Shown here one piece after another: positions 1-64,000 of a stretch of 64,000 nt of DNA. The notes beneath the pieces were generated by a model. The model was not told the origin of the DNA and made no database searches. It worked only from the letters and a program-made list of their open reading frames with translations. The position numbers were made by a program, and so were the translations under genes. This DNA comes from Candidatus Poriferisocius sp. (GTDB lineage Bacteria; Actinomycetota; Acidimicrobiia; Acidimicrobiales; Bin134): positions 1,702,816-1,766,815 of the forward strand of contig OZ244918.1 of the NCBI GenBank assembly GCA_965221865.1. The letters are read 5' to 3'. Numbering within the stretch: the stretch's first letter is position 1; every line of letters begins with the position of its first letter.

Positions 1-127
1 GCGGACACTTGCCTAGACTACTTGCAGCCCGTGTCAGCTTTAGATCAAAGCACAAACGAACTCCTCATGTTTTAGCGTTATTTTGCTGAGGATGCCTGCT
101 CTGCTAGAGGTATGTTTGATGGTATGT

Positions 128-2487: not shown

Positions 2488-2549
2488 CCTAGCAGGGCAG
2501 GCTCTTCAGCAAAATAATGCTAAAAAATGAGGAGTTCATTTGTGCTTTG

Positions 2550-3698
2550 GCAAGCTCTAGTGGTGGTCGCGACATAGTTGATTGTATATGGTTTGGGCTG
2601 TGTTCGGGTGGTGGAGTTTTCTGGGCATGTTGTTTGGTGAACTCCGTCGGTGGTCGCGACGGGTCGGCTATTATGGTCGGTTTGATGTTTCTGCGGCCTA
2701 TCGTTGGAGGGTTTTGTTGTGGCATAGTGTTTGGGTGTGTGGGGGCGCGCATGTTTTGAGGTGTTGTTACAGCAGGGTTTGAGTGATGCTGGGTTTGGGA
2801 AGTGTTTGGGTAGGAGTCGGGTAACGGTGTGGTGGGAACAGAAGCGTTTCGTTCAGGGCGCGTATCATGCTGAAACCGCTCAAAATGGGGCTGATGGGAA
2901 AGCGTTACGACCGAGGCTGTGTGAACTGGTTGTAGATGGTGAACTTGTTTAGCTGGTGAAAGATCGGTTTGGTGAGTGTTTATCGCTTCACGCTATTGCA
3001 GCGGAGTTACGTTGTTTGGGTTACCGGATTTGTGCCGAGATGATTTGCTGGGCTTGTTATGATTTTTCTAACCGTAGCGGTTTACTATCAAAATGTTGGA
3101 AACTGCTGCCTCGTGCTTGGCGGCGTAAACCACCTAGCCGCAGTTCGCAGGGTAGGTGCAGTGTTTTAGGTGATTGGTGTCGTATATGTGAGCGTCCCAG
3201 CGAAGCTGATAGCTGAGTTGAGCCTGGTCATTAGCAAGGCGATCTGATTATCACCCAAAAACCATCGCTCAGCTATAGCTACTTTAGCAGAACGCAAAAG
3301 CCGTCAAACCTTCAGTGTCAGCTTAGGTGACAGCTACGATGCTGTTAACACTGCTAACACCTGTCACCCAAGCACTAGCCCGGCAACTTGCACATATGGT
3401 GAAAACCCTCATCTGAGACCACCGCAGAGAAATGACACGGTTAGCTGACATAGAAAAAACCGTCGGTATCAAAGTTTACTTCTGTGAACCCCACTCACCA
3501 TGGCAACAACCCAACCAACAAACAAACCAACACCTATCTTACGACGCCCGCTACTCAAACACACCAACCTCAACACCACCAAACCCCTACCAGCAACCAT
3601 CAAAGACCATATCAACAACACACCCAAAAAACCCCACCACCCGAACACAACCCAAACCACACACAACCAACCATGTCACAACCACCACTAGAACTTGC
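2550..3698 (+). mobile_element. Degenerate IS30-family element, copy 2 (transposase pseudogene) with 85-bp terminal inverted repeat
   Basis: Contains N-terminal HTH-like LGRSRVTVWWEQKRF..AYHAETAQ, then the same landmarks as copy 1 (EPGH*QGDLI, VYFCEPHSPWQQ), with stops and frameshifts. 2550-2634 is the reverse complement of 3614-3698 (73/85 identical). Confidence 0.7.
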
Positions 3699-4029
3699 CT
3701 TATTTAGCAGTAATTTTTTGTCCCAGTTGCCAAACCCAATCAGGCGCATTTATAGCGTCATGGTCGCATAAAGCGTTAACTGCCATAGCGATCCGTGTCA
3801 GATCGTGGCGGCGCGGCGTGTGAAACGATGCCACCACCGATGTCGCTGCGGTGGTATTTTCATACTTATTACTCTATGAGCGTGATCTGTGTGCGATCAT
3901 TGCTTGCACAGTTCGCGAAGGTCAACCACACGACCACGCATATCGTTATTACGCATCAGCTCAGGAGTATCAGCAGCTGTGATAGTAGGAACAAACACCA
4001 CACTGACACAGGAGGCTCACCCAAACACG

Positions 4030-7236: not shown

Positions 7237-7941
7237 TGGGATCCCCCCCCCTTAGACGACATCAGCCGAACCGATATCACCCAAGTAGAAGACGTGCAAC
7301 GCGACCCTGTCGGCGTCCGTAGACTGCTAACTTCGTTGGGGCGTAACACCGGCGCCAAAGCATCTTTGCGAACACTGTCTCAAGACGCTTCTAAGGATCG
7401 AGATGTGGCTATGCATCCCCGAACTATTAAGGCATACTTACAAGCGCTTGAGCGCTTGTTTGTGGTTGAAGATTTGCTGGCATGGCAACCGCATCTTCGG
7501 TCGCGAATAGCTTTACGCACAACTCCAGTTCGCCATTTCGTATGCCCCTCTCTCGCTGTTGTCGCTTTGCGTACCAACAGCACTCGCCTGCGAGCCGATT
7601 TGAGGTTCTTCGGTTGTCTCTTTGAATCGCTTGTTGTGCGTGATCTTCGCATCTACTCACAGATTGAGGGCTGCCTTCTCTCCCACTATCGAGACGAATA
7701 CGGCTTAGAAGTAGATGTGATTTTAGAAAGAGCCTACGGAGAGTGGGCTGCATTCGAAATCAAACTAGGAAGCCAGGCAGTCATCATGGAAGGAATCGAG
7801 TCGCTTCGCATGCTAAAAGATCGCGTTAACACCAAACGTATAGGGGAACCCAGCAAGCTAGCAGTAATCACTGCAACAGGCATTGGTGGGGAGTTGCCTG
7901 ACAACATAGCAGTCATACCCATCACAGCCCTCGGCCCCTGA
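7237..7941 (+). pseudogene. DUF4143-domain ATPase, 5'-truncated C-terminal fragment
   Basis: The region DI..V.RDP..VRRLL..L..N.G...S...L......HPRTIKAYL.ALE.LF resembles the DUF4143 C-terminal half of AAA_14 proteins. The N-terminal ATPase half is absent. The frame opens just after a stop at 7234-7236 and runs through a C9 tract (7243-7251); the first start codon is GTG 7294. Confidence 0.5.
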
Positions 7942-8216
7942 CGGCTCACATAGCCAAAACAACCAACTCAACAAACTGTCAGTACCTAATAAACCGGCGC
8001 CCCTACTGTAAACACGTTCCATTGCAGCATTCAAAACCTCACACGGCAGCCGCCCAAACAATTCCAGTCTCAAGTTCTCAGTCAATAGCGACTCTTTCTC
8101 GGATTCCGGCAAAAACACCGGAACTAACTATCTCAGACCACACCCTTCACACAGACAATCTGACAGTCTCCCAGCAAGCATTTTCGACATGCTTTAACCT
8201 TTGAATAAATTGGGTA

Positions 8217-43696: not shown

Positions 43697-43860
43697 GCCC
43701 TAAAGACTACACCCAATTGACAGACTTGCTAAAGAGCAGTGTATTTACAAATAGGGGGGGGGCAGCTCACTGTTGAGTTTTTTCTTATGATTATGGTGGT
43801 GTTGTTGGTTGGGGGTGGGGTTGTGGTATGCTTTTTGGATGCGTTTTTTCGGGTTTTTAG

Positions 43861-46800
43861 TTGGTGGTGTTGTGTGTGGGTTTGCGCGTCTTGTTGCTGT
43901 TGTGGGGGGGGGGGGGGGCAGGTTTGGTGAGGTGTCTGAGGTTGGGTGGTTGGTTGCGTAAGGTTTTGCGCGTGCGGGGGTTTGTTGCTGCGGCACTGGC
44001 CGCGGTGTTGTTTGGGGTGTTGTTTGGGGTGTTGGCGCCTGGTTCTGTTGGGGCGCAAACTTCGTCTGTGGTGTCTTCTACTGGTGATAGTGCGGTGGAG
44101 GTAGGCGAGGGTTCCGTGGCTGTTGTTGGGTTTAGTGTGTCGCCTCCGGTGGATTCGGAGGTGTGGCTTCGGTTTTGTTTTGAGAGTTCTTTAGCTGATT
44201 CTAATTTTTCTAATCTGCAGACTCAAATTGGTAATATGAACGTGTCTTTGGATAATAATGGTTGTTTTGATGGCCAGACGGTAACTGTTACCGTGGCCGG
44301 GGCGACGACTCAGTCAGCTACTATTAGGTTTCAGCCTTTGACTAATACGGTGGATGATCTTGATGAGGTTGTTACTGTTACGGTGAGTGAGGATCCTGAT
44401 AATCCGTTGCCTGATGGTGTAAGTATCGATGCTGAGGCTGATTCGGTGTCGAGGAAGATTGTGGATGAAGATCCGACGGTGGTGTCGTTGGCTCGTTCGG
44501 GTTCGGGGGCGATCACCGAAGGCGGGTCAGCGGAGTTAACGGTGAGTTTGGGTCGTGAGCTTGTTGCGGGTGAGATGGTGGGTGTGCCGTTGGCTATTAG
44601 CGGTACGAATGTGACGACCGCGGACTATGATTTGGTGTTGAAGGAAGGACAGGGGCTCAACACTGGCGTTGAGTTGTCGGGTGTGTCAACAACCGAACCG
44701 CATTTGAGTTTTTCTGGTGCTGGCGCGCAGACAGCAACTTTGCTGCTGACAGCGTTGCTAAATAATGATACGGGTGCTGAAACAGTAACAGTCGCGTTGG
44801 GGCCTGATGATGCGACTGCTAACGGTTTTGATCGCCCAGCGTTAGAGACGAACGTAAGTGGCGGTGTTAACCGGTCAAGCACGCAGAATAGTGTGAATGT
44901 GACAGTGAACGATCCTGCTGCGCCTGCTGCGCCTAGGTTATCGTTGGCTCAAGCTGGTGATGGGCAGGTGTATTTGTCGTGGGCTAATCCGGTTAATAGT
45001 TTGATTACTGGTTATGAGTTTCAACGCCGCCCAAGCGGCGGTGAGTGGGGTTCAGCGAAAGGGATTGTTGGTAGTAACGCTAATACCATTACTTATGTGG
45101 TAACCGGTCTCACTAATGACACGGCTTACACTTTCCGGGTGCGCGCTGTGTCTGGTAATACGGATGGGGCGTGGTCGGATGCGTCTGCTGCTGTGACACC
45201 AACGTCTGCTTCTACTGCTAGACCGGCTGTTCCAACGAATTTGGCGGCTGTTGCCGGTGACTCACAAGTAGTGTTAACGTGGGATAACCCGGGTAACACG
45301 GCGATTACTAGTTATGAGGTTCGTCAAAGAACTGGGTCCGCTGATTGGGGTACGTGGGCTGCTATTGCTTCTAGCAGCGCTACTACTGTTACCCATACTG
45401 TTACCGGGTTAACTAACGGTGTGACATATCAGTTTCAAGTACGTGCCGCTACTGGAAACCAAGACGCGTTGAAAAGTTTAACGCCAACAGATTTTTTCGC
45501 TGAAGCTACCCCCAGACCGGCACCACCAACGTTGCTGGTGTCGTCAAGGTCTGCGTTGCGGGTGCCTGAGGGGACGACAACTTTAGGGTATAATATTGTG
45601 TTGTCCCGGGCGTTGACGGCTGATGATCCTGCTGTGTTGGAGTTTGAGATAGCTGTTTCTGGCACTGCTACGCGTGGTACGGATTACTCGTTTTCGTCTG
45701 ATTCTAATTTGAGTGGCACAGGTGTGAGTGTGGTTAACACTGCGGGTAAGGGTAACCCTGTGATTCGTATTGACCGGGCCGCGTTCGGTCTCACTCGAAG
45801 AGGTAGCACTGCTGGGTTGATTATCAACGTGAATCCTGATAGTGATACGGAATCGACTGATGAGACGATTGTACTAACAACACCAGGCACCACCCTCACC
45901 CACATGATTTATGATGCGCCTGCGTCTGTTGAAGCTAAGTTCGCTTTAGCTTCTTCTACTTACGCTGAAGGTTTCGGTCCTTTAACGGTTGTTGTTCAAT
46001 TGAGCGCGTTAACAGGCCGGGATTTGGTGTTCCCCATATTATACCCGTCGGCTACTACAACAGCGGTAGCGAATGTTGATTACACACCGGTTAACAGTTT
46101 CACGGTGAAAGCTAATGGGCAGTTAACTCATTCTTTGGTTATTCCTTATGTTGATAATGATGTTGATGAGCCTAATAAAACGTTGTCTGTGATGTTGGGT
46201 GCTGCGCCTTCGGGTGCTACTAAGGCCACAACAGACACTATGACGGTGACTATTGCTGATAATGATGCAACAACAGTCGCTTTAGCGGTGGCAGATACTA
46301 CGTTGCGTGAAGACACTGACACTCGTTTGACTGTCACTTTGAGTCGTGATTTAGTGGCTGGTGAAATAGTGCGGGTGCCTTTGACTGTAAGCGGAACTGG
46401 TGTGACAGCTGATGATTACACGTTGGAGTTGGCTTCGGATGCGGGGTTGAACACGGGTGTTAGGTTGAACATTGCCTCTCCTTTTAGTGCTGCTTCACCG
46501 CAGGTAGTGTTCACAGGTAGTAGCGGCACCGAACAGGTCGCTACTTTGGTGTTGAGCGCTTCCTATGATGCTACCTCTGAGGGTGCGGAGACGTTGCAGG
46601 TTGGTTTCGGTGCGGTTACAAGCAATTTAGCTCACCCGGATCGGTCTACGTTTACTGCTGCTGGTACTACTGCGGGTGCCCCGGTTGATGTGACAGTGAA
46701 TAATTTGGATGCCCCAGCAGCGCCTACAGGACTCGCCGCGACTGCGGGGGACACGCAAGTGTCGCTGGTTTGGGATGATCCGGGTAATAATTTGATTACT

Positions 46801-49800: not shown

Positions 49801-51861
49801 AATGTTCCGTTCCGTTTGTTGATCGATGATGTAGGTTTAGTGGGTTTAGCTGATTTCACTATTCACAATGGTGATACTACTAGTTCAGCTAGTTTGAAAG
49901 CTCCTAACGACCGGTATGATGAACCAACTAAACAAGCATGGACAGCGGAATTGAACACTGCGTTGCTACCCGAAAATCATGTTGCTGATACATCTCGGGT
50001 GGCATTTACTGTTACAGATAATGATCCGACCACGGTTACTCTCAACGGGCTTGCAGGTGATATCGCTGAGGACACGGTGAAACGATTTACAATCACCCTT
50101 AACCGCGGGTTAGTAGCCGGTGAAACCTTGCCTGTACCTTTGGTTTTTGGTGGTACTGCTACCCGCAACGCGGATTACACTACTGCTTGCCCTGATCCTT
50201 TGCCGGTGGGAATACAATGCAATAATCTTGATACCGCTGAGACGCCGACTGTAACATTCACTGGCCCTCAACAAGGTGTAACAGCCCGTTCGGTTACTTT
50301 AACAGTCACCGCCCAAGCAGACCTATACACTGAAAACGACGAAACTCTGCGCATCGCTTTAGCACCCCTAAACGCTGATTCTGGTGACGGTTTAGGCGGC
50401 GGCGCGGTTGCTGTCAACGATTTTGATGCGTTCAACATCACAGACACCACCGACCCAGCAACCGCAATACAACCACCCCCAGAAGACCCTGAAGAACCTG
50501 TTGATCCTGAACCTGAAACAGTACCAACAACGCCCATATATCAAGTACCCACCAGCCTCATAGCTGATGTGCGCGGTTACGCTGCTGAAACTCACAATGG
50601 TGCCGCGCATGTGCGCCGTTGGCAACAAGTCTTGTTAGCGTTCGGTGACACCGTTAATGGGTTCACCGGCGCTCCGATCACTCTCACCGAAGCGCGAACC
50701 TATGCGCAACAGTTCTGGAGTGTTCGCTGGGATCCGGTAGTTGAAGCACTACAACAACTCGCCAACAACCCCCAACCCCAACCCACCGCAACACCTCAAC
50801 CCACTCCAACATCCACACCAACACCATCTGTTTACACCGTGCCAGCCAGCCTCATAGCTGATGTGCGCGGTTACGCTGCTGAAACTCACAATGGTGCCGC
50901 GCACGTGCGCCGTTGGCAAAGAGTCTTGCTCGCGTTCGGTGAAGACGTGCCAGGCTTCACTGGCACCCCGATCACCCTCACTCAAGCGCGAACCTATGCG
51001 CAACAGTTCTGGGGCAGCCGCTGGGATCCTGTAGTTGAAGCATTGCAACAACTCGCCAACAACCCGCCACCCCAACCTAACGACCCGTCGCCTAACAATC
51101 CGCCGCCTAACAATCCTTCAGTTGACCCACAGCCAAAACCTGTGCTGCCCAGAATCGGTGTTACAGCACCCACCGATATCACCGAAGGCCAAACCGCCGA
51201 TTTCACATTCACCGCTGTGTCCGCCCCCGCAACCCCGCTCACTGTCACTGTCAACATAATCACAACAGGTGATTATGGCATCACCGCTGGCAGCCGCACC
51301 GTGACCATAGACACCAACGGCACCGCCACACTGTCACTAGCTACCATTGGTGACAGCGTTGACGAACCAAACGGCACTATCACCGTCACACTTACCACCA
51401 GTAACACCTATAATGTTGACTCTGCTGCTGCGACTGCGACGGTTACTATCGCAGACGACGACGCACCAGTACAAACCACAAGCACACCTATTATTTCTAT
51501 AGCCGACCAAACCATCACCGAAGGCACCTCCTGTCGTACCCCCGCCCCCTGGTCCTGCCTCAACTTATACCCTGTCACTGTCACTTTGAACCAACCCCAC
51601 CACCAAAGCGTGTGGGTCTCATTCACCATCACCCAACTCGGACAAGGAACAGGCTATGCCACCGCGAACCAAGACTTCGCCGCACGCGACCGAAGAAGCT
51701 TCATCATCGCCGCAGGCCAAACCACCAAAAACATATACGTCAACATCAAAGACGACAACACCAAAGAACCCGACGAAACCTTCCAAATCACCCTACACAA
51801 CCCCCTCCGCGGACAAATCGGCGACGGACAAGCCACCATCACCATCAAAGACAACGACTAA
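43861..51861 (+). CDS. Giant secreted Calx-beta-like/FN3 repeat protein (2666 aa as listed; likely start GTG 43972)
   Basis: Signal-peptide-like RGFVAAALAAVLFGVLFGVLAPGSVGA-QT. Contains two FN3 pairs, many Calx-beta-like modules (..DNDATTV.., VD.DVDEPN.TL.V.L), three super-repeats and two 98-aa C-terminal modules. An AAGG lies 8 nt before 43972. Confidence 0.85.
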   Translation: MVVLCVGLRVLLLLWGGGGAGLVRCLRLGGWLRKVLRVRGFVAAALAAVLFGVLFGVLAPGSVGAQTSSVVSSTGDSAVEVGEGSVAVVGFSVSPPVDSEVWLRFCFESSLADSNFSNLQTQIGNMNVSLDNNGCFDGQTVTVTVAGATTQSATIRFQPLTNTVDDLDEVVTVTVSEDPDNPLPDGVSIDAEADSVSRKIVDEDPTVVSLARSGSGAITEGGSAELTVSLGRELVAGEMVGVPLAISGTNVTTADYDLVLKEGQGLNTGVELSGVSTTEPHLSFSGAGAQTATLLLTALLNNDTGAETVTVALGPDDATANGFDRPALETNVSGGVNRSSTQNSVNVTVNDPAAPAAPRLSLAQAGDGQVYLSWANPVNSLITGYEFQRRPSGGEWGSAKGIVGSNANTITYVVTGLTNDTAYTFRVRAVSGNTDGAWSDASAAVTPTSASTARPAVPTNLAAVAGDSQVVLTWDNPGNTAITSYEVRQRTGSADWGTWAAIASSSATTVTHTVTGLTNGVTYQFQVRAATGNQDALKSLTPTDFFAEATPRPAPPTLLVSSRSALRVPEGTTTLGYNIVLSRALTADDPAVLEFEIAVSGTATRGTDYSFSSDSNLSGTGVSVVNTAGKGNPVIRIDRAAFGLTRRGSTAGLIINVNPDSDTESTDETIVLTTPGTTLTHMIYDAPASVEAKFALASSTYAEGFGPLTVVVQLSALTGRDLVFPILYPSATTTAVANVDYTPVNSFTVKANGQLTHSLVIPYVDNDVDEPNKTLSVMLGAAPSGATKATTDTMTVTIADNDATTVALAVADTTLREDTDTRLTVTLSRDLVAGEIVRVPLTVSGTGVTADDYTLELASDAGLNTGVRLNIASPFSAASPQVVFTGSSGTEQVATLVLSASYDATSEGAETLQVGFGAVTSNLAHPDRSTFTAAGTTAGAPVDVTVNNLDAPAAPTGLAATAGDTQVSLVWDDPGNNLITGYQFRRGSGDPFSWGTHKGVANSDASTTSYVVTSLTNSTEYSFQVRALINSVEGAWSSTVKATPTSSSTAPPAAPSNVTATAGDTQVVLTWANPGNAAITGYEVRQRAGSSGSWGSWAAIASSSATTVTHTATGLTNGIEYSFEVRAVAGTTQGAASVTVTATPMIEPPILNLFRRPPARLPEGTITDTNFDFRLSRALTSDDPALVDLEVAVSGTATRNVDYQFFSSGTVAGVSVLNTAGTGNLVLRINRATFGTTSQAVSVKLGIRVLPDNTVESSDETIILTPAGGSARTFSVYDAPASVEVNVEQSRLRASTLENRSLHLTLVLDAATGKDLVFPVSYSGTATSGSDYTPVDSFTVKANGRLTHSLVIPYVDDDVDETNETVTVMLGDAPSGATKGSTDTATFTIVDNDATTVTMKLAGRAGIEENTSTQLTVSLSRDLVTGEEVWVPLTVSGTGVTADDYTFSLASGTGLNTGVTLNTTAPYSAALPQVLITGGSAVERFATLTLSAADDSTAENTETLSIGYGSVESNLDRLDASIFSTGGTTTAGAPVTVQISDEATGPTLLFTRTGTGTRLPEGTTLVEHNFVLSRRLNGTDPQVLEYEIGLGGTATRGADYTLRFVSQARHSDGVTVINTAGSSNPVLRINRTVFGSRLTRGTVGLVLSVTADNTVESAAETITLTTSGGSLAYTIYDAPASVEAKFTRAAYGYQEGNRVFTVVIQLNEPTGKDLVFPLSYPQPTTAVSGVDYTPVDSYTVKANGELNHAISFLYNDNNLDELTKTLTVMLGAAPDGVTKGTPDTATVTIYDNTPTAVTLAVNGSSSIEEDTSTQLTVTLGRDLVAGEIVRVPLTVSGTGVTADDYTLELASDAGVNTGVTLNTANPYSAAEPQIVFTGGSSVERVATLVLKAVADNDDTETSETMTISFGSVTSNLDQINPSVFDGSGTAAGEPVEILLGAAVLTLSVDSGTANPTEVVEGELLMITVTRSQANRTGADINVPFRLLIDDVGLVGLADFTIHNGDTTSSASLKAPNDRYDEPTKQAWTAELNTALLPENHVADTSRVAFTVTDNDPTTVTLNGLAGDIAEDTVKRFTITLNRGLVAGETLPVPLVFGGTATRNADYTTACPDPLPVGIQCNNLDTAETPTVTFTGPQQGVTARSVTLTVTAQADLYTENDETLRIALAPLNADSGDGLGGGAVAVNDFDAFNITDTTDPATAIQPPPEDPEEPVDPEPETVPTTPIYQVPTSLIADVRGYAAETHNGAAHVRRWQQVLLAFGDTVNGFTGAPITLTEARTYAQQFWSVRWDPVVEALQQLANNPQPQPTATPQPTPTSTPTPSVYTVPASLIADVRGYAAETHNGAAHVRRWQRVLLAFGEDVPGFTGTPITLTQARTYAQQFWGSRWDPVVEALQQLANNPPPQPNDPSPNNPPPNNPSVDPQPKPVLPRIGVTAPTDITEGQTADFTFTAVSAPATPLTVTVNIITTGDYGITAGSRTVTIDTNGTATLSLATIGDSVDEPNGTITVTLTTSNTYNVDSAAATATVTIADDDAPVQTTSTPIISIADQTITEGTSCRTPAPWSCLNLYPVTVTLNQPHHQSVWVSFTITQLGQGTGYATANQDFAARDRRSFIIAAGQTTKNIYVNIKDDNTKEPDETFQITLHNPLRGQIGDGQATITIKDND
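43904..43918 (+). repeat. Homopolymeric G15 tract in the giant gene 1 leader / extreme 5' end
   Basis: Counted directly. Lies 54 nt upstream of GTG 43972, where a signal-peptide-like sequence starts. A G9 run is at 43754-43762. Confidence 0.95.
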
Positions 51862-51882
51862 CCCCGTTGGGGGTTAGTCGTT
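51853..51882. terminator. 13-bp perfect palindromic hairpin between convergent genes (bidirectional terminator candidate)
   Basis: aacgactaacccc-gttg-ggggttagtcgtt. Both stop codons (51859-61 and 51874-76) lie inside the stem. There is no U-tract. Confidence 0.5.
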
Positions 51883-52278
51883 GGGGCGTGGTAGTCCGGC
51901 GGCGGTTTCGAGGCGAGCTAGGCGGTCGGTGTGGTCGAGGAGTATCGCGTTGATTTCAGCAAATCCTGCCTGCATTTCTGTGCGTACGCTGCTGATTTCG
52001 GTGCGTAGTTCGGTGCTTAGTTCTGTGCGTACGTTGTTGATTTCGGTGCGTAGTTGAGTGTCGAGGTTGTCTATGCGGTTGCCGAGTGAGTTGATTTGTG
52101 AGATGATTATGCTTAACAGCACAGATACTAGGGTAACTAGTAGTGTGCCGACCACCGAGCTGAGGGATGGGAGCCATTTACGTGTTGTGCTTTGTGTGTC
52201 ACCGGTTTGAGATTGCGCGGTGTCGCTCATCTCGACAGTGGTTGTTTCGGTTGGCACGTTTTGTATTATAGCAGCCAT
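51874..52278 (-). CDS. Membrane-anchored coiled-coil protein, unknown function
   Basis: AGGAGG SD, one TM (VVGTLLVTLVSVLLSIIIS), and a repeated RTEINNVRTELSTELRTEISSVRTEM. Confidence 0.65.
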   Translation of the reverse strand: MAAIIQNVPTETTTVEMSDTAQSQTGDTQSTTRKWLPSLSSVVGTLLVTLVSVLLSIIISQINSLGNRIDNLDTQLRTEINNVRTELSTELRTEISSVRTEMQAGFAEINAILLDHTDRLARLETAAGLPRPND

Positions 52279-57765: not shown

Positions 57766-57868
57766 CGGGACACACCTGTTCCCCGATATTTTGAGAGCAG
57801 ATTGTTTGGGTAATATAGTAAACGTTACGTCAAGCTACTATTGTTGGTGATTGTTGAAAGGATGAGGA

Positions 57869-58741
57869 ATGGCAAAAACTGAGACTATTCGTGCTCGAGT
57901 TGAGCCAGAGCTTAAACAAAAGGCCGACAAGGCACTAGCTGAACTTGGTGTTACAGCTACCGATGCCATTACACGAATGTATGAAGAGGTTGTGTCCACA
58001 GGGGCGTTACCGTTTGCCGATGATGCAACAACCACAGCTAATCCGAATAAACAAATCGCAAACCCTAAAGAACCGGTAGAAGGGCAAACTGTTGTAGCTA
58101 CATCTCAACGCCCACCTACAGAGGCGAGTCGTTCCGAAGGTTATCACGATAAGGTTTCAGGGGAACAGCAGCGTCAAGGCACACCTAAAAACGATATACC
58201 TAAAGAAGAACTACCTACTTCTAGTTCACGGGAGGGAACGGTTTCGCTAGGCGGTTTTTCGCCTGACGCGAGGATAAAGCCTGCAACTATTTTTATTATT
58301 TTGGGGTCTTTGGCTTTTGCAGCCTTGTTTGCGGTCTTTTTGTATCTTCTTGTCGCAGAGCGTTCTCACACTCATGATGAGTACGCCGAACACACCCATG
58401 CGCATGATGAGTATGCCAGTCACACGCATGCGCATGATGAGTACGCTGAGCACACTCATGATGAGTACGCCGAACATACCCATACCCACGATGAATATGC
58501 TGAACATACCCATGTGGTGAGCCCTTATGGTTATGGCCTAAACAGCCAGCCTCAGTACCCGGTGCCTCCTGTTTATGGGACTATTCCTGCACCTGCTCCA
58601 TTTTGGCCTGCTCCAGAGCTTTATTCACAACCCAATTCTGGAGCAGAAATGTATTACTGTCCTAATGGAGAGCATTATTCATTTCAAGCATCTCCAGACT
58701 GCGTTTATAGGGGAACATATTACAATAGACCTTTTGGATAA
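57869..58741 (+). CDS. DinJ/RelB-like RHH domain fused to a TM helix and a His-rich repeat region
   Basis: N-terminus TIRARVEPELKQKADKALAELGVTATDAITRMY..V...GALPF resembles DinJ. TM is ATIFIILGSLAFAALFAVFLYLLVA. Five HTH(A)HDEYAE repeats lie at 58367-58513. Confidence 0.6.
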   Translation: MAKTETIRARVEPELKQKADKALAELGVTATDAITRMYEEVVSTGALPFADDATTTANPNKQIANPKEPVEGQTVVATSQRPPTEASRSEGYHDKVSGEQQRQGTPKNDIPKEELPTSSSREGTVSLGGFSPDARIKPATIFIILGSLAFAALFAVFLYLLVAERSHTHDEYAEHTHAHDEYASHTHAHDEYAEHTHDEYAEHTHTHDEYAEHTHVVSPYGYGLNSQPQYPVPPVYGTIPAPAPFWPAPELYSQPNSGAEMYYCPNGEHYSFQASPDCVYRGTYYNRPFG

Positions 58742-58756
58742 AGGCTAGAAAATCAG

Positions 58757-60900
58757 CGGTGGTTGGGTGGGGTTAGAGTTTTATGTAGGTGTCGGGGTTT
58801 TGGGTGTGTTTTTGCTTTGGGGAACAGATTTTTCGTGTTGTTGATAATTGGGGAACAGATTTTGTTTGTTTGTTTTTATCTGGGTTTTTAGCTTGTTTGT
58901 AAGGGTTTTCTAGTTTTTGTTGTTCCTCGTGGTTTGTTTTCCGTTATCTGTGTGTGTTGGTTGTTTGTTTTTGTAGTTTGTGGGGGTTTGGTGTTTGTTG
59001 GAGGGTAGCTGCTGGGGGTGGTGGGGTTTTGGTGGGGGTGTGGTTGGTTTTTTATTGTTTGTTGATTTTTGTATAGTATATGAATTATGAGTGGTTTGTT
59101 GTTTTGTTTGTTGAGGGGGGGTTTGTGTTTTGATTCTTTGGTGTGCGGGGGGGGGGGCTGGGTTTGTTGTTTGGGGTTGTGTGTGTGGGTTGAGGTGGGG
59201 TTGTGATGTTGGTGGGGGGTTTTTGTTTTAGGGTTGTTTGTGGTTTGGTGGTTGTGTTGGGTTTGTTTGTTTCGGGTTTGGGTGTTGGTGGTGGTGTGGT
59301 TGCGGAGGGGGGTGGTTTTGTGGGGGTGGGTGTGGGGGGTTCTGGTGTTGTTGTGGGGGTGGGTGATGTTGGTGTTGGTGGGGTTTTGGGTGTTGGGGGT
59401 GGGTCTGATTTGTTTTGGGGTTTGGATGGTTTGGAGGGTTTGGAGGGTGTTGGGGGTGGTGTTGGTGTGGTTGGGGGTCGTGTGGGTGGTGGGTTGTTGT
59501 TTGGTGGGGATGGTTTTTTGGATTTGGGTGTGGGTGTGGGTGGGGGTGGGGGTTTTGGTTTTGAGGGGTGTGGGTCTGGGGAATCTGGTGTGGTTGAGGG
59601 TGTTGTTGAGGAGCTTATGTCAGATACTGTTGTGGCGGATAGTGGGTGTGGGTGGTCTGTTGGTTTGTGGGTGAAGCGGGTTGGTGGGGTTGTTGGTGGG
59701 TCTGTGTTGTTGGGGTCTTTGGAGGGTGGGGATTCTTTGTTGTTGGAGGGTGTTGGGGGTCGTGTGGGTGTGGGGCGGTTGGGTGGTGTGGTTCGTAGTT
59801 TTGGGTTTGGTACGCCGTTGGGTGAGTGGGTTTATTTGGTGTTTGTGGGGTCGTCGGGTGGTGTGGGTTTGTTTGTGGATGGGGTGTTGGTGGGTTGGGT
59901 TGGTGGGGGTGTTGGGTTGTCTTTGGGTGTTTTGGGTGGTGGTGTTGGTGGTGTTGGGGGTGTGAGGGCTGTTTTGGATGATTTGCGGGTGTGGGGTCGT
60001 GTGTTGTCTGCGGGTGAGGTGGCGGGGGTGTTTGGGGGGTTTGAGCCGTTGTTGGTGCCTGGTGTTGTTGAGGGTTTGGTTGGGGCTGATGTTGGTGTTG
60101 GGAGTGTTGGGTTGGGGTGGTTAGCGCCTGTTGGTGGTGGTGGGGTTGAGGGGTTTGAGGTGCGTTGGCGTGAGGAGGGTTCGGGTGTGTGGTTGGGTGA
60201 GGGTGTGGTTGAGGTGTCGGCTCAGGGGAAGGGGGAAGAGGGGTATGGTTTTGTGGCCGATGGGTTGGGTGTTGGGGTGGCATATGAGTTTTGGGTGCGT
60301 GCTGTTAATGGTGTGGGTGGTGGTGGTTGGGTTTCTGTTCGGTTTGTTGCGGGTGTTTCGGGGGTGGCTGATGTTGTGAGCGGGTTGAGGGTGTCTTCTG
60401 AGCCGGGTGGGTTTAGGGTTTCGTGGGGTAGGCCTGTTGATGCGGGTGGTTTTGATGTGTCGGGGTTTGAGGTGCGTTACCGGCGTGGTGGTGGTGGTGG
60501 TTGGGTGTCTGAGTTTGTGGGTGACACAGAGCGGGGGTTGGTGGTGGATGGTTTGGTTGTTGGTGGTGCCTATGAGGTGCAGGTGCGGGTTTTGACTGGG
60601 TTTGGTGCGGGTTTGTGGGTGTCTGGGAGGGTTGTTGTGGGTCGTGAAGGTGTTCCGGGTGTTCCGGGTGGGTTGTTGGTTGATGTTGGGGCAGATGGGG
60701 TGGTGTTGTTGTGGGATGCGCCTGTTAGTGATGGTGGTGTTGGGGTTGATGGTTATGAGGTTCGGTATAGGCGGGGCGGGTTTTGGTCTGAGCCTGTTGG
60801 TTTAGAGTCTTGGGTGCGGGGTTATGAGTTTTCGGGTTTGGTGCGTGGTGTGGATCATGTGTTGTTGGTGCGGGCTATAAATGAGCGTGGGCCGGGTTCT
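58757..60900 (+). other. G+T-saturated (A/C-depleted) tract
   Basis: For example, 59281-59400 has 4 A/C in 120 nt. The tract covers 450 nt of non-coding DNA and the first 1.7 kb of giant gene 2. Confidence 0.9.
59147..59157 (+). repeat. Homopolymeric G11 tract 49 nt upstream of the giant gene 2 ATG (plus G7 at 59115-59121)
   Basis: Counted directly. Confidence 0.95.
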
Positions 60901-63900
60901 TGGGCTGGTTTAGAGGTAGGTTTTGGTGTTTCATCTAAACAAGCGTTCACGGTGCCTAGGTTGGTTGGTTGGTTGCCTGGTGATGGGGTGTTCACAGTTG
61001 TTAGGGGTTCACGTGTTGTGATTACGGGTGGTGATACAGCTAGGAGTTGGTCTGAGGATTTCATGTCCACAGTATTAGAAAACGAAGAGGTGGTAGCCGA
61101 TGTTGACAGTGTTTTAGGTGTGAATGTGTTGCAAGCACATTCACAGGTTGTGGGTGTTGCTACTGCTGCGCGTAGGGTTTTACGGGAGGTAGCAGAAAAG
61201 ATAGCTGCCGATTTGGAAGCTGTCACAGGTTTTGATGTGCCTGTGGTGGTGGTTGATGATATTCAAAGTGCGCGTGCTGGTGACATTGTGTTGGATGTAG
61301 CTGATAGTTCGGTTGAAGGGTTGGGGGTGGAAGGTTACACATTGTTTGTGGGTGATGTGGTAAGGATTGTTGGGAATACTTCTACTGGCGTGTTTTGGGG
61401 GTCGAGGTCTTTGCTGCAATTGTTAGCAGCATCTGAAACCGGTTTGGTGGTACCAGCAGGTTCGGTGCGTGATATTCCTTCAGCGGTTAGCGCTGTGAGA
61501 TCTTTGCATTTAGATAAAGCAGCCAGGTTTTACAGTCCAACACATTTACAACAGTTGATCGGGTTGTTGTCTTGGCACAAACTAAACGTGTTACACCTTG
61601 ATTTCACTTTCGCTAATGGTAGATACGATCAAGCGGTTTGGCTTTCGGATTTAGAAAACTTCGCTCGCGACCATCATGTGGCAGTAATCGTTAGCGAACC
61701 GCTTGCCGACACTACACCACCCGCAGAACAAGCAGACAGGCTAGTTGCTGAAAGTTTTGTTAGCAGCGGTGTGGTTGGGAGTGTTGTTGGTGACGGTGAT
61801 GCAGGGTTAGTTGAGAGCACAGTCACACAAGACCGTCAACAATTAGCTAACACTGTGTCTGGTGTGAGCGCGGATCGTTGGGTGAGGGGACACCGTTTTG
61901 TTTTAGGACGTCAACTTGTGTTACCTGATTTAGCGGCTATTCACAGTCTGGCTAGCAAACTGAATGGGCCCGGTGAGGTGGGTGCTGGACTGTTCGTGGG
62001 CGGCCCGTTAGCTTTAGCAGCCACCGACGGGTTCATCAACTATCATTTAGGTTCGTCTTTAGCAGTGCTCGGTGACCGGTTATGGAACGAGCAGGCATCT
62101 AACTGGACAGTCGACGAGTTCCTAACAGCTAAAAACATTATCGGTTCACCGCTCACAACAAAAACCGTTCACAACTCTGAACAACATCGCGGGCTCATAC
62201 ACCACTGGAGTTTCAACAATGTGAAATATTATCAAACCTCTGAAAACACAGCAGATAAGACAAGCTATTTACTAATACCCGATCATACGGGCAGAGCTGA
62301 CGGATATGCGATCGGTGACCCACAAAAATTTCCTCGGCTAAACGCTGACAGCCGTCTTTTAGGTCAAAGCATAGAATTCGGGCACAGCGAACAAGTCCTA
62401 AACCAAGACGGCATAGAACTAGGCGCCACAGACTTACCAGTACCATGGACCCTGTCAGCGTGGGTGAAACGAACCGGCAACCATCCCGGAGCGACACTAC
62501 TAAACTCAATTAACGGGGCGATACGCCTACAACAACACAACAAACCCGTAATAGGCCTCCTAGACCGCACAAACACACCATACACATACCACAACTTTGA
62601 CTACACCCTGCCACTAAACAAATGGGTACACCTAACACTCATCGCCACCCAACAAGGCACAGTACTATACGCTGATAGCCGTCTTGTCGGCTCAGTGCCC
62701 AAGTCGATTTCGTTGCCGCTACAACAAATCGGGTTTGAAAACCTCATCGGCCTAAAAGCCAAAATAGATGATATCAAAATATGGGGGCAACCACTTGTTT
62801 CTGCTGTCAACCAAGTTATATCCACCCCAACAACACCCATTGATCAACCCATAGTGCCCGAGCTGGTTGCTACACCACCATTAGAACCCGGTTTAGTAGC
62901 AGTGTCGCTGGATGTGAACAACTCGGGCACAGTCACAGAGGGTGGCACGTTGACGGTCACTGCGACATTAGCGGCAGCGGCCGCAGCGAACGTTACGATT
63001 CCAGTGCGCGTTGCCTCCGGTGGCACAGCAGGAGCTGGTGATTACACACTTTCTGCTTCGGGGAACATTACTATTAGCAGCGGTTCCACATCAGGCACTT
63101 TGACGTTTAATGCTACCGATGACAGTATTGATGAAAACAATGAGACGCTAACATTAGAGTTCGGTACGCTACCTGCCGGTTATCGTGCTGGCAGCCCGTC
63201 AAGTGTGAACATCACCATAACAGACAACGACACAGCGGGTGTGACCATCACCGAGACCGGTGACAGCACATCGGTAGCAGAAAACGCTGGTACTGACACT
63301 TACACCGTCGTGTTAGACACCCAGCCAACCCATGATGTGTCGGTGGCGGTCACATCAACAGGGCCTGTGGCGTTTGATGGACCAGATGATGCGACCGCGT
63401 ACACCACAAGTGAAACATTAACGTTCACACCAACTAACTGGGCGACAGCGCAGACGATCACAGTGCAAGGCCAAAACGATGATGTGGACAACACTGGCGG
63501 GTCGCGTAGCGCGACACTCTCTCATGATGTGTCGTCCAGCGACACGGCTTATAACGCTATAGCTGACCAAGATGTCACCGTAACGGTGACCGATGATGAT
63601 GCGACGCCTGAGATTGATTTAAGTGTGAACCCGGCAACGGTGGCAGAAGATGCTGGCGCGACCACGGTGACAGTTACCGCCACGGTTGATGACGCGACCA
63701 TCAGATTTGACGCGGCGAAAACGGTAGCAGTGTCGGTTACAGGGTCGGGTGAGGCTAACCGGGTCGGGTTCACAGCGGTCAACAACTTCAACATTACTAT
63801 CGCTGCTGGCCAACCGTCGGGGAGTAACACGTTCACGCTCACACCAGATGATGACAGCACTGATGAGACCGACGAGACAATCACCATATCGGGCACTTCA

Positions 63901-64000
63901 ACTGGGCTAACCATCAACCCGGCGACGTTGACCCTCACCGACGATGATGCTCTTGCACTTGTTAGCATGCCTGTCACGTTGGGGGTCAACAACTCGGGCA
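59206..64000 (+). CDS. Giant surface protein 2 (partial, continues past the window)
   Basis: Domain order is TM/signal, LamG, 3x FN3, GH20-like, LamG, Calx-beta-like repeats. Frame 1 is open from the stop at 59191-59193 to the window end, checked by hand translation of several segments. It is absent from the ORF track because no stop is reached. Recognisable landmarks include W.VGLWVKR...LFVDG...DDLRVWGR.LSAGEV (LamG_3), FRVSWGRPVDAGGFDVSGFEVRYR (FN3), EGYTLFV...GVFWGSRSLLQLL...D.P....R.LHLD.AR.FYS...L..LI.LLS.HKLNVLHLDF (GH20-like), and ..TITDNDTAGV.. (Calx-beta-like). Confidence 0.85.
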   Translation, partial: MLVGGFCFRVVCGLVVVLGLFVSGLGVGGGVVAEGGGFVGVGVGGSGVVVGVGDVGVGGVLGVGGGSDLFWGLDGLEGLEGVGGGVGVVGGRVGGGLLFGGDGFLDLGVGVGGGGGFGFEGCGSGESGVVEGVVEELMSDTVVADSGCGWSVGLWVKRVGGVVGGSVLLGSLEGGDSLLLEGVGGRVGVGRLGGVVRSFGFGTPLGEWVYLVFVGSSGGVGLFVDGVLVGWVGGGVGLSLGVLGGGVGGVGGVRAVLDDLRVWGRVLSAGEVAGVFGGFEPLLVPGVVEGLVGADVGVGSVGLGWLAPVGGGGVEGFEVRWREEGSGVWLGEGVVEVSAQGKGEEGYGFVADGLGVGVAYEFWVRAVNGVGGGGWVSVRFVAGVSGVADVVSGLRVSSEPGGFRVSWGRPVDAGGFDVSGFEVRYRRGGGGGWVSEFVGDTERGLVVDGLVVGGAYEVQVRVLTGFGAGLWVSGRVVVGREGVPGVPGGLLVDVGADGVVLLWDAPVSDGGVGVDGYEVRYRRGGFWSEPVGLESWVRGYEFSGLVRGVDHVLLVRAINERGPGSWAGLEVGFGVSSKQAFTVPRLVGWLPGDGVFTVVRGSRVVITGGDTARSWSEDFMSTVLENEEVVADVDSVLGVNVLQAHSQVVGVATAARRVLREVAEKIAADLEAVTGFDVPVVVVDDIQSARAGDIVLDVADSSVEGLGVEGYTLFVGDVVRIVGNTSTGVFWGSRSLLQLLAASETGLVVPAGSVRDIPSAVSAVRSLHLDKAARFYSPTHLQQLIGLLSWHKLNVLHLDFTFANGRYDQAVWLSDLENFARDHHVAVIVSEPLADTTPPAEQADRLVAESFVSSGVVGSVVGDGDAGLVESTVTQDRQQLANTVSGVSADRWVRGHRFVLGRQLVLPDLAAIHSLASKLNGPGEVGAGLFVGGPLALAATDGFINYHLGSSLAVLGDRLWNEQASNWTVDEFLTAKNIIGSPLTTKTVHNSEQHRGLIHHWSFNNVKYYQTSENTADKTSYLLIPDHTGRADGYAIGDPQKFPRLNADSRLLGQSIEFGHSEQVLNQDGIELGATDLPVPWTLSAWVKRTGNHPGATLLNSINGAIRLQQHNKPVIGLLDRTNTPYTYHNFDYTLPLNKWVHLTLIATQQGTVLYADSRLVGSVPKSISLPLQQIGFENLIGLKAKIDDIKIWGQPLVSAVNQVISTPTTPIDQPIVPELVATPPLEPGLVAVSLDVNNSGTVTEGGTLTVTATLAAAAAANVTIPVRVASGGTAGAGDYTLSASGNITISSGSTSGTLTFNATDDSIDENNETLTLEFGTLPAGYRAGSPSSVNITITDNDTAGVTITETGDSTSVAENAGTDTYTVVLDTQPTHDVSVAVTSTGPVAFDGPDDATAYTTSETLTFTPTNWATAQTITVQGQNDDVDNTGGSRSATLSHDVSSSDTAYNAIADQDVTVTVTDDDATPEIDLSVNPATVAEDAGATTVTVTATVDDATIRFDAAKTVAVSVTGSGEANRVGFTAVNNFNITIAAGQPSGSNTFTLTPDDDSTDETDETITISGTSTGLTINPATLTLTDDDALALVSMPVTLGVNNSG

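What the first reader, a model, noticed from the sequence alone, without database searches (positions are those of the whole stretch)
62100..62880. Two LamG paralogues in the same ORF carry opposite strand biases
Giant gene 2 has one LamG_3-like domain inside the G+T tract (about 59440-60050). It reads WSVGLWVKRVGG, encoded tgg tct gtt ggt ttg tgg gtg aag cgg gtt ggt ggg. A second LamG domain lies in a C+A tract (about 62330-62800). It reads WTLSAWVKRTGN, encoded tgg acc ctg tca gcg tgg gtg aaa cga acc ggc aac. G+T makes up only 29 of 120 nt in 62521-62640. The intervening GH20-like region and the downstream Calx-beta-like repeats look normal. An internal C+A patch cannot be explained by a single promoter-proximal or end-proximal gradient. 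Either patches arise independently on either strand, or the gene is a mosaic of segments with different histories.
Basis: seen in the sequence. Interest (0 to 1): 0.6.

Follow-up and report, generated by a model that had tools for sequence, protein, structure and literature searches.

The report
Reverse-polarity hypermutation patch in giant gene
Inside a giant surface-protein gene of an uncultured sponge-associated bacterium, about 0.9 kb has had its G's and T's systematically replaced by A's and C's, the mirror image of an almost pure G+T tract at the start of the same gene, which points to a local, strand-specific mutation process that I could not find described for bacteria.

Summary
62521-62640 has 29/120 G+T. 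The bias sits at synonymous sites: third-position G+T falls to 0.08 (62524-62673), against 0.575 +/- 0.087 (minimum 0.32) in 937 blocks of ordinary genes. Leu codons switch from TTG to CTA. The patch spans about 61980-62860, core 62270-62680.

The same ORF (11,004 aa in a sister strain) starts with a 2.2-kb tract that is 94-100% G/T at third positions.

The two LamG domains are old paralogues (30% identity), each with its own orthologue in two related sponge Acidimicrobiia. No domain import is needed. In those species the C+A patch lies 0.7-1.5 kb further downstream, so it is lineage-specific and not a property of LamG.

In the core, changes separating the window from two outgroups are 46 G>A/T>C against 8 reverse. 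A 99% strain differs by 9 transitions, all on the same axis.

The same two-polarity tracts occur in giant gene 1 and in IS relics, where 12 of 12 differences between the inverted repeats are C>T or A>G. They are absent from 398 kb of unrelated contigs.

Best reading: in-situ, strand-coordinated transition hypermutation acting here on the minus strand. The molecular cause is unresolved. No published precedent was found.

The parts
59206..64000 (+). Giant gene 2. The probable start is GTG/ATG at 59206-59211, and the frame is open from 59194 to the window end. The product is 11,004 aa in sister strain L007. Domain order is signal peptide, LamG1, fn3 x3, GH20b plus a vestigial GH20 catalytic start, LamG2, then Calx-beta modules.
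58751..60993 (.). Saturated G+T tract on the + strand. It starts about 10 nt after the stop of the upstream RelB-like gene and includes about 450 nt of non-coding leader. Third-position G+T is 0.94-1.00, and Leu is TTG in 52 of 56 codons.
60994..61593 (.). Decaying tail of the G+T tract, with third-position G+T of 0.58-0.78.
59650..60025 (+). LamG1 (Pfam Laminin_G_3, 38.5 bits) inside the G+T tract. G, V, L, W, F and C make up 71% of residues, against 32-37% in an outgroup.
61980..62860 (.). C+A patch on the + strand, so the - strand is the G+T-enriched one. It fades in from the left and has a sharper right edge.
62270..62680 (.). Core of the C+A patch. Third-position G+T is 0.08-0.30. Four-fold sites are A 0.45, C 0.28, G 0.15, T 0.11. 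Changes on the branch separating the window from the two outgroups are 46 G>A/T>C against 8 A>G/C>T.
62194..62810 (+). LamG2, from LIHHWSF to IKIWGQP. The Pfam Laminin_G_3 match is 62404-62797 at 41.2 bits. It is orthologous to LamG2 of L004 and L009.
62674..62745 (.). Island of ordinary composition between the core and a weaker C+A stretch (62746-62860).
   Evidence: direct reading of the sequence
43745..44460 (.). G+T tract at the 5' end of giant gene 1, with third-position G+T of 0.90. The gene body stays near 0.7.
50400..51861 (.). C+A tract at the 3' end of giant gene 1, with third-position G+T of 0.32-0.38. It is a second reversed-polarity tract in the window.
51852..51883 (.). Perfect 14-bp hairpin with a 4-nt loop that overlaps the TAA of giant gene 1. 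Polarity flips here: C+A to the left, G+T to the right (51865-52108, over the 3' end of a minus-strand gene).
2549..3699 (.). Relic of an IS element; I assign it to IS30 only from a C-terminal motif, without a profile search. The 86-nt inverted repeats are at 2549-2634 and 3614-3699. The left end is G+T-rich and the right end C+A-rich. All 12 differences between the inverted repeats are C>T or A>G. A second copy lies at about 97-1061.

Best explanation
The C+A patch is the footprint of an in-situ, strand-coordinated transition process. On the minus strand of this 0.9-kb stretch, A was repeatedly changed to G and C to T, which reads as T>C and G>A on the coding strand. The same process, acting on the plus strand, produced the saturated G+T tract at the 5' end of the gene.

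The process is local, at kb scale. It is polar: in four of the five reversed tracts I inspected, one edge is sharper and the bias tails off 5'->3' along the G+T-enriched strand. It is also locus-specific. It affects the two giant adhesin-like genes and the IS relics but not neighbouring or highly expressed genes. Purifying selection keeps the ORF and the LamG fold, so the signal is strongest at synonymous sites.

What is shown: the synonymous bias, its lineage specificity, the dominance and direction of transitions, the parallel tracts of both polarities, and continuing differences between strains along the same axis.

What is inferred is the molecular cause. My preferred version, at roughly 0.35-0.4, is that one strand is exposed as single-stranded DNA and its amino bases are deaminated (C->U, A->hypoxanthine). 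In the patch the exposed strand would be the minus strand. The exposure could come from R-loops that reinforce themselves as the displaced strand becomes G-rich, with the patch seeded by internal antisense transcription starting near 62.7-62.9 kb. The main alternative, at about 0.25, is repeated nick-primed re-synthesis of one strand by a polymerase prone to wobble mispairs.
For: (1) The bias is synonymous.
- Third-position G+T is 0.08-0.30 in the core, against 0.575 +/- 0.087 in background blocks.
- Four-fold sites are A+C 0.73.
- Leu codons are CTA 14/36 and TTG 1/36, against TTG 35% and CTA 14% in ordinary genes.

(2) The patch is not a property of the domain. In the collinear orthologues L004 and L009, LamG2 has third-position G+T of 0.42-0.87 in the columns aligned to the patch core. 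Their C+A patches lie at window-equivalent 62683-63250, and at 63538 onward in L009.

(3) Sites where both outgroups agree and the window differs, in 62270-62680: G>A 24 and T>C 22, against A>G 1 and C>T 7, with 24 transversions.

(4) Against strain L007, which is about 99% identical, all 9 transition differences in 62130-62769 have G/T in the window and A/C in L007. Seven of the 10 differences there lie in three clusters of 4 nt or less. In the G+T tail the ratio is 9:4 the other way.

(5) The same phenomenon occurs elsewhere in the window.
- All 12 differences between the IS inverted repeats are C>T or A>G.
- Giant gene 1 has a G+T 5' end and a C+A 3' end, with the flip at a hairpin.

(6) Highly expressed genes are not affected: tuf is 0.62, fusA 0.58 and rpoBC 0.56.

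(7) The tracts are seen only in this clade. There are none in 398 kb of unrelated contigs. They appear in short-read and long-read assemblies of three species.

(8) L004 has TGG>TGA at the conserved Trp of LamG2 in three assemblies. This is the by-product expected of G>A mutagenesis.
Against: The outgroups are distant (about 50% aa identity), and L004 and L009 may be sister taxa. Part of the 46:8 asymmetry could therefore lie on their branch.

The 9:0 strain comparison cannot be polarised. At the ten sites, the L004 state agrees with L007 at 4 and with the window at 3.

No antisense promoter-like site was found. No neighbour-base preference typical of known deaminases was seen. No deaminase, reverse transcriptase or error-prone polymerase gene was found among the window ORFs I scanned.

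Spontaneous adenine deamination is much slower than cytosine deamination (my own background knowledge). The roughly equal G>A and T>C counts therefore need an enzyme, unequal repair, or the polymerase model.

The first L009 patch does not show the sharp-right-edge shape.
Confidence: 0.7

Rival explanations
1. Mosaic origin. The LamG2 segment was imported by recombination from a donor with a different composition, or from a divergent allele in which the patch had formed. Under this reading the skew borders are recombination junctions.
For: The giant genes do recombine. In the 98% strain L064, giant gene 1 is 33-41% divergent from about 44000 onward, while its flanks are 1-2% divergent. L003 carries a 370-nt block (51385-51751) that is about 11% divergent and contains indels. 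Window and L007 differ in small clusters at 61074-61100 and 61395-61420.
Against: LamG2 is collinear and orthologous in three species. It scores 210-231 bits against LamG2 of L004 and L009, and 59 bits against LamG1. Window and L007 differ by only about 1% across the patch, with no divergence step at 62.1 or 62.88 kb. The bias fades in gradually and has no block edge on the left. No other copy of the segment exists in the window. A donor with third-position G+T of 0.08 would itself need the same mutational process.
Confidence: 0.12
2. Selection on composition. Either the protein needs T/N/Q/H/P/K-rich residues, or the mRNA or DNA is selected to be C+A-rich, for example to be unstructured, since A and C cannot pair with each other.
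For: LamG2 is slightly enriched in TNQHPK (0.34, against 0.27-0.28 in the orthologues). Both tract types would give weakly structured RNA; this is an inference and was not tested.
Against: The effect is largest at synonymous and four-fold sites. The same mRNA carries the opposite bias 2 kb upstream. Orthologous LamG2 domains lack the bias, and their patches sit in other domains. Non-coding IS relics and inverted repeats show the same spectrum. The differences between strains are clustered multi-nucleotide changes.
Confidence: 0.08
3. Ordinary heterogeneity. The patch is chance codon-usage variation, or a replication- or expression-linked skew.
For: The + strand of the window is mildly G+T-rich overall (0.54). 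Weak patches also exist in ordinary genes, for example 7888-8183 and 16209-16428.
Against: The patch lies 5-6 sd from background and below the minimum of 937 background blocks. It is also outside the range seen in 398 kb of control contigs. Its sign is opposite to the local replication skew and to its own gene. Highly expressed genes look ordinary.
Confidence: 0.02

Closest known systems
Vertebrate mitochondrial H/L-strand asymmetry (deamination of the strand left single-stranded during replication; abstracts of PMC1794132 and PMC3269014)
   Same: One strand becomes G+T-rich and the other A+C-rich. This is attributed to a strand-biased mutation pressure linked to replication; the C>T plus A>G spectrum is background knowledge. 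The effect is strongest at third codon positions.
   Different: The mitochondrial bias is genome-wide and tied to replication origins. Here the tracts are 0.3-2.3 kb long, locus-specific, reach about 100% at synonymous sites, and both polarities occur inside one ORF.
Immunoglobulin somatic hypermutation and class-switch regions (AID acting on transcription- or R-loop-exposed DNA); background knowledge
   Same: The mutagenesis is targeted to particular genes and starts near the promoter. It decays over about 2 kb. A G-rich non-template strand favours R-loops, and the mutations are clustered.
   Different: AID deaminates C only, with WRC hotspots, and it acts somatically. Here A>G and C>T are about equal, no hotspot context was seen, the changes are inherited, and no deaminase has been identified.
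eMutaT7-transition, an engineered T7 RNA polymerase fused to cytidine and adenosine deaminases (PMC10250238)
   Same: It is a gene-specific hypermutation system built on nucleobase deaminase-T7 RNA polymerase fusions and installs all four transitions at similar frequencies (abstract). That the mutations fall on the strand displaced by transcription, and that the opposite polarity needs transcription from the other side, is background knowledge.
   Different: It is synthetic. No natural RNA-polymerase-coupled dual deaminase is known, and none was found in this window.
Fungal repeat-induced point mutation (RIP); background knowledge
   Same: Strand-coordinated transition tracts that can switch polarity along a sequence and that inactivate transposon copies. 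The IS relics here are pseudogenised.
   Different: RIP is C>T only and lowers GC. Here GC is unchanged or raised (0.485-0.54 against 0.496) and A>G is as frequent as C>T. LamG2 has no detectable repeat partner in the window.
Diversity-generating retroelements; background knowledge
   Same: Targeted diversification of ligand-binding domains in surface proteins.
   Different: DGRs change template A to any base, need a TR/VR pair and a reverse transcriptase, and act on about 100-150 bp. None of these was found.
APOBEC3G hypermutation of retroviral DNA; background knowledge
   Same: Strand-specific G>A runs on the coding strand, with TGG converted to stop codons as collateral damage. L004 shows TGG>TGA.
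   Different: It acts on viral cDNA, affects C only, and has a strong dinucleotide context.

Membership tests
Laminin_G_3 / concanavalin-A-like lectin domain (PF13385) | The profile match exceeds the Pfam gathering score, for both domains. | tested here: met
   LamG1 scores 38.5 bits and LamG2 41.2 bits against a cut-off of 27.6. The two align at 30% identity with E = 4e-20.
Recently duplicated paralogues or domain import (mosaic) | The two LamG domains are closer to each other, or to a foreign donor, than to positional orthologues; or collinearity with orthologues is broken. | tested here: not met
   Each domain has its own orthologue in L004 and L009 (197 and 94 bits for LamG1; 231 and 210 bits for LamG2), against 59 bits between LamG1 and LamG2. 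Each also has its own closest unit in P0002. The whole region is collinear.
Replication-associated strand skew | Chromosome-arm scale, with the same sign for all neighbouring genes on a strand. | tested here: not met
   Neighbouring + strand genes have third-position G+T of 0.54-0.63. The patch reaches 0.08 and the 5' tract 1.00 within one gene.
Generic transcription-associated mutational asymmetry (coding-strand G+T excess that scales with expression) | The effect is present in highly expressed genes, and its sign follows the sense strand. | tested here: not met
   tuf, fusA and rpoBC are ordinary (0.56-0.62). The patch has the opposite sign to its own gene.
Antisense-transcription or R-loop-coupled strand exposure | An antisense transcript or an RNA:DNA hybrid lies over the patch. 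| not testable with these tools
   The consensus scan found no promoter-like site on either strand in 61800-63400. That scan is not decisive for Actinomycetota promoters.
Deaminase-type hypermutation (AID/APOBEC-like, TadA/ADAR-like) | Strand-coordinated clusters of transitions. | tested here: met
Deaminase-type hypermutation (AID/APOBEC-like, TadA/ADAR-like) | A characteristic neighbour-base context. | tested here: inconclusive
   No 3'-neighbour preference was seen among 32 G>A and 34 T>C inferred conversions. The 5'-neighbour signal is confounded by adjacent conversions.
Deaminase-type hypermutation (AID/APOBEC-like, TadA/ADAR-like) | A deaminase gene is encoded in the genome. | not testable with these tools
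   None was found among 20 neighbouring ORFs. The rest of the 2.75-Mb genome could not be fetched.
Diversity-generating retroelement | A template/variable repeat pair, A-specific substitutions, and a nearby reverse transcriptase. | tested here: not met
   No second copy of the patch exists in the window. The spectrum is G>A plus T>C. No reverse transcriptase was found among the scanned ORFs.
RIP-like repeat-induced mutation | C>T only with loss of GC, restricted to duplicated DNA. | tested here: not met
   Both transition types are about equally frequent. GC is 0.485 in the patch and 0.54 in the G+T tract, against 0.496 for the window. LamG2 is not duplicated in the window, although the IS relics are repeats.

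The most novel reading that the evidence does not exclude
Sponge-symbiont Acidimicrobiia possess a dedicated, locus-targeted system that edits DNA on one strand or hypermutates it, converting both A and C (to G and T). It starts at defined entry points and runs for up to about 2 kb. It continuously reshapes giant adhesin-like genes and destroys IS copies. Under this reading, the C+A patch in LamG2 marks an internal entry point on the antisense strand. This would be a natural bacterial counterpart of somatic hypermutation and of the engineered polymerase-deaminase mutators.
Probability: 0.3. Interest if true: 0.95.

Novelty: categorically new. Interest (0 to 1): 0.8.

Why it matters
Bacterial strand asymmetries known so far are mild and operate at the scale of a chromosome arm or a transcription unit. 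Here, kb-sized tracts reach saturation at synonymous sites. They occur in both polarities within one ORF, differ between sister species and are still changing between 99% strains.

If a targeted mechanism underlies this, it would be a new way for bacteria to diversify host-interaction proteins and to silence mobile DNA. It could also be a natural source of dual A and C strand-specific mutators.

There are practical consequences. Such tracts distort codon-usage, HGT and gene-calling statistics. They create spurious ORFs on the G+T-rich strand and can generate premature stops, as with TGG>TGA in L004.

The opposite-polarity patch is the key observation. It rules out any single-gradient or sense-strand-only explanation.

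Tried and rejected
- Exact-protein look-ups meant to reach the 98% strain's copy of giant gene 2 (Aldedh, RelB-like, CN_hydrolase) returned only the 99% strains. rpoB was not on record.
- The genome-contig scan gave a single locus, L009.
- The metagenome scan gave 54 loci, almost all unrelated GH20 genes. They served only as a composition control.
- Sigma-70 promoter and terminator scans at the tract starts and around the patch found nothing.
- Short-repeat and hairpin searches at the patch borders found nothing meaningful.
- Rfam gave no match in 57800-64000.
- A BLAST search for a template-like second copy of the patch gave no hit. A transition-collapsed two-letter alphabet search produced only meaningless alignments of about 73% identity everywhere, so I discarded it.
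- Neighbour-base context of the inferred conversions was uninformative.
- Minus-strand ORFs under the patch are only 60-98 aa, as expected for a stop-poor G+T-rich strand, so an antisense gene was rejected.
- L004, L005 and L006 are nearly identical, with three G/T differences, so they gave no polymorphism information.
- Eight literature searches found no description of such tracts. The sponge-Actinobacteriota comparative paper does not mention skew, codon, strand or hypermutation.
- A sequencing or assembly artefact was considered and rejected. The tracts keep a 3,178-codon frame open and retain recognisable domains. They recur in HiFi/metaMDBG, MEGAHIT and SPAdes assemblies of three species.
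Full report
OBSERVATION.
The frame that contains the finding is open from 59194 to the end of the window. It encodes a signal peptide, LamG1, three fn3 domains, a GH20b domain, a vestigial GH20 catalytic start, LamG2 and Calx-beta modules. In a sister strain the product is 11,004 aa.

The two motif strings start at 59653 and 62446. G+T is 29/120 in 62521-62640 and 0.373 over 62100-62880, against a window mean of 0.540. Both LamG domains pass the Pfam threshold: 38.5 bits at 59650-60025 and 41.2 bits at 62404-62797. They align at 30% identity over 126 aa, E = 4e-20.

IS IT MORE THAN CHANCE, AND IS IT MUTATIONAL?
Codon-position analysis shows that the effect is strongest where the protein does not constrain it.
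- Third-position G+T is 0.24, 0.12 and 0.34 in three successive 150-nt blocks from 62344. Four-fold sites give 0.35, 0.12 and 0.36.
- Across 937 sliding 50-codon blocks of 19 ordinary genes, third-position G+T on the + strand averages 0.575, with sd 0.087 and minimum 0.32.
- In giant gene 2, 25 consecutive blocks (starts 62269-62629) fall below that minimum, and the lowest is 0.08 at 62524-62673.
- Binomial P values run from 2.7e-10 to 1.2e-16.
- Leu codons change from TTG 35% and CTA 14% in ordinary genes to CTA 14/36 and TTG 1/36 in the patch. In the G+T tract they are TTG 52/56.
- In 398 kb of unrelated metagenome contigs, 240-nt G+T never leaves 0.367-0.708. The patch reaches 0.30.

The patch fades in from about 61980 and is deepest at 62360-62670. 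It recovers within about 130 nt on the right, has a normal island at about 62674-62745, and is weakly C+A again up to about 62860.

CONTEXT IN THE SAME GENE.
From 58751, about 10 nt after the stop of the upstream RelB-like gene, to about 60993 the + strand is 83-97% G+T and 94-100% G/T at third positions. A tail continues to about 61590. Beyond the window, in strain L007, third-position G+T returns to 0.72-0.92 for at least 4.4 kb. The gene is therefore a patchwork, and the C+A patch is the only reversed segment in its first 9.5 kb.

SOURCE AND RELATIVES.
The identical EF-Tu occurs on a 2.75-Mb contig and a 111-kb contig whose names follow the metaMDBG long-read style. Their DNA is 98.2% and 99.5% identical to the window there.

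Syntenic orthologues of giant gene 2, at about 48% aa identity, occur in three short-read sponge-metagenome assemblies (L004-L006) and in 'Acidimicrobiia bacterium SB0675_bin_2' (L009). Sponge-symbiotic Acidimicrobiia are known to be enriched in fn3 and Calx-beta proteins (PMC11706023).

COMPARATIVE TEST.
I made a four-way codon alignment.
- All three species share the 5' G+T tract. Third-position G+T is about 1.0 in the window, 0.72-1.0 in L004 and 0.85-1.0 in L009.
- The C+A patches differ. Window and L007 have theirs at 62014-62890.
- L004 and L009 have theirs at window-equivalent 62683-63250 (minima 0.05 and 0.20). L009 has a second patch from 63538 onward (0.03-0.18).
- Across the columns aligned to the window's patch core (62254-62682), third-position G+T is 0.42-0.70 in L004 and 0.55-0.87 in L009.

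So the bias is not a property of LamG2 and was not inherited with it.

Domain bit scores show that LamG1 and LamG2 each have their own orthologues and their own closest unit in a more distant Acidimicrobiia protein. They are old paralogues, and no import is needed.

Where both outgroups agree and the window differs, the core (62270-62680) shows G>A 24 and T>C 22, against A>G 1 and C>T 7, with 24 transversions. The region 60952-61999 gives 37 against 19. At third positions where both outgroups have T, 24 of 35 are C in the window.

Caveat: the outgroups are distant and may be sisters, so polarity is not strict.

STRAIN-LEVEL TEST.
Window and L007 are 98.7% identical over 16 kb. In 62130-62769 they differ at 10 sites. 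Nine are transitions, and in all nine the window has G/T where L007 has A/C. One is T>A. Seven of the ten lie in three clusters: 62387/62389, 62656/62657 and 62733/62735/62736. In 60912-61420 L007 is the more G+T-rich sequence, 9 to 4.

The flanking housekeeping genes differ by about 0.3% with balanced directions.

Direction cannot be rooted with the distant outgroup. Even so, both tracts differ between near-identical strains strictly along their own axis. This argues for an ongoing, strand-coordinated, clustered process.

THE SAME PHENOMENON ELSEWHERE IN THE WINDOW.
- Giant gene 1 (43861-51861) has third-position G+T of 0.90 at its 5' end, about 0.7 in its body and 0.32-0.38 in its last 1.4 kb.
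- At its stop codon a perfect 14-bp hairpin (51852-51883) marks a flip to + strand G+T over the 3' end of a convergent gene.
- Two relics of an IS element are G+T-rich on the left and C+A-rich on the right. Their decayed ORF keeps a transposase C-terminal motif that I recognise as IS30-like from memory only; I ran no profile search on it.
- All 12 differences between the 86-nt inverted repeats are C>T or A>G.
- A flanking direct repeat (about 137-230 and 976-1070) differs mainly by G in the left copy against A in the right copy.

Four of the five C+A tracts I examined have the sharper edge on the right and tail off to the left. That mirrors the G+T tracts. The first L009 patch does not fit this shape.

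MECHANISM.
Shown: a local, polar, locus-specific excess of A>G plus C>T on one strand. In the LamG2 patch that strand is the minus strand.

Inferred: the cause. Generic replication skew and generic expression-linked skew are excluded, because neighbours and highly expressed genes are ordinary.

I favour exposure of one strand as single-stranded DNA, followed by deamination of its amino bases. The exposure could come from R-loops that become self-reinforcing as the displaced strand turns G-rich. In this version the patch is seeded by antisense transcription from about 62.7-62.9 kb.

Points in favour:
- The tract starts right after the upstream gene and includes the leader.
- The bodies of the giant genes carry a coding-strand G+T excess.
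- Polarity flips at a convergent terminator.

Points against:
- No promoter-like site was detected.
- No context preference was seen.
- No candidate enzyme lies in the window.
- A>G is as frequent as C>T.

Nick-primed re-synthesis by a polymerase prone to wobble mispairs predicts the same geometry and explains the equal rates naturally. I cannot separate the two versions with these tools.

RIVALS.
Mosaic origin: these genes do recombine. One allele is replaced in the 98% strain and L003 carries a block about 11% divergent. However, the LamG2 segment is collinear and orthologous and shows no divergence step at the skew borders.

Selection on protein or RNA composition is contradicted by four things: the synonymous signal, the opposite bias in the same mRNA, the displaced patches in the orthologues, and the same spectrum in non-coding relics.

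Chance is excluded.

KNOWN SYSTEMS.
The pattern resembles mitochondrial strand asymmetry, AID-type hypermutation and switch-region R-loops, engineered polymerase-deaminase mutators (PMC10250238), RIP, DGRs and APOBEC editing. It fails defining features of each one that could be tested; see the membership table. Eight full-text searches found no description of kb-scale saturated G+T or C+A tracts in bacterial genes.

VERDICT.

Noticed in passing
window 58751-60993: A 2.2-kb tract is 83-97% G+T and 94-100% G/T at third codon positions. It still encodes a recognisable LamG domain and three fn3 domains. It starts about 10 nt after the upstream gene's stop and includes about 450 nt of non-coding leader. 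It is shared, less intensely, by two related species.
   Followed up: partly
window 58816-58830, 58847-58861, 59068-59092: A/C-containing islands survive inside the non-coding G+T leader. GGGGAACAGATT occurs twice, with a weaker third copy at 58707-58721, and TGTATAGTATATGAATTATGAG lies about 115 nt before the start codon. They are probably operator or promoter elements protected by selection.
   Followed up: no
window 97-1061 and 2526-3781: Two relics of an IS element whose decayed ORF ends in ...KVYFCEPHSPWQQ..., a motif I take to be IS30-like from memory only (no profile search). The left ends are G+T-rich and the right ends C+A-rich. All 12 differences between the 86-nt inverted repeats (2549-2634 and 3614-3699) are C>T or A>G.
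   Followed up: partly
window 50400-52108: The last 1.4 kb of giant gene 1 is C+A-rich (third-position G+T 0.32-0.38). At a perfect 14-bp hairpin that overlaps its TAA (51852-51883), the + strand flips to G+T over the 3' end of the convergent gene 51874-52278.
   Followed up: partly
L004 13748-13750 (also L005, L006): An in-frame TGA replaces the conserved Trp of LamG2 (window TGG at about 62623). It splits the orthologous giant gene into two called genes in three independent assemblies. This is the stop expected from G>A mutagenesis; it could also be a recoding site.
   Followed up: partly
L064 18524-21191 vs window 43861-46309: In a strain 98-99% identical in its housekeeping genes, giant gene 1 becomes 33-41% divergent from about 44000 onward (product 3,236 aa against 2,666 aa). 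The body of the gene has been replaced by another allele while the leader and signal peptide are kept.
   Followed up: partly
window 51385-51751 vs L003: A 370-nt block with about 40 substitutions and 6 indels separates L003 from the window and L007. Its flanks are nearly identical. It is likely a gene-conversion or recombination tract, but L003 is a 2x-coverage contig.
   Followed up: partly
window 43904-43918, 43754-43762, 59147-59157: Poly-G runs in the leaders of both giant genes vary in length between strains: 15, 18 and 19 G; 9 and 8 G; 11 and 10 G. They are possible slipped-strand expression switches.
   Followed up: partly
L007 16438-20872 (beyond the window end): The Calx-beta module array of giant gene 2 has third-position G+T of 0.72-0.92 over at least 4.4 kb. 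The gene body as a whole therefore leans to G+T on the coding strand.
   Followed up: partly
window 61498-61608 (aa 769-805 of the ORF): Only the first 40 or so positions of the GH20 catalytic domain match the profile, at 21.3 bits against a cut-off of 22.3. The enzyme domain looks vestigial, although GH20b is intact. The region aligns collinearly in the orthologues.
   Followed up: no
window 57869-58741: The gene upstream of giant gene 2 encodes a RelB-like N-terminus, a transmembrane segment and His-rich HDEYAEHTH repeats. It is syntenic in the related species.
   Followed up: no
window 59234-59674 and other frames of 58760-60900: The G+T-rich strand is nearly free of stop codons. Long spurious ORFs therefore appear in other frames, and gene callers report artefactual genes there, for example the 105-aa 'gene' at L004 9687-10004.
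   Followed up: no
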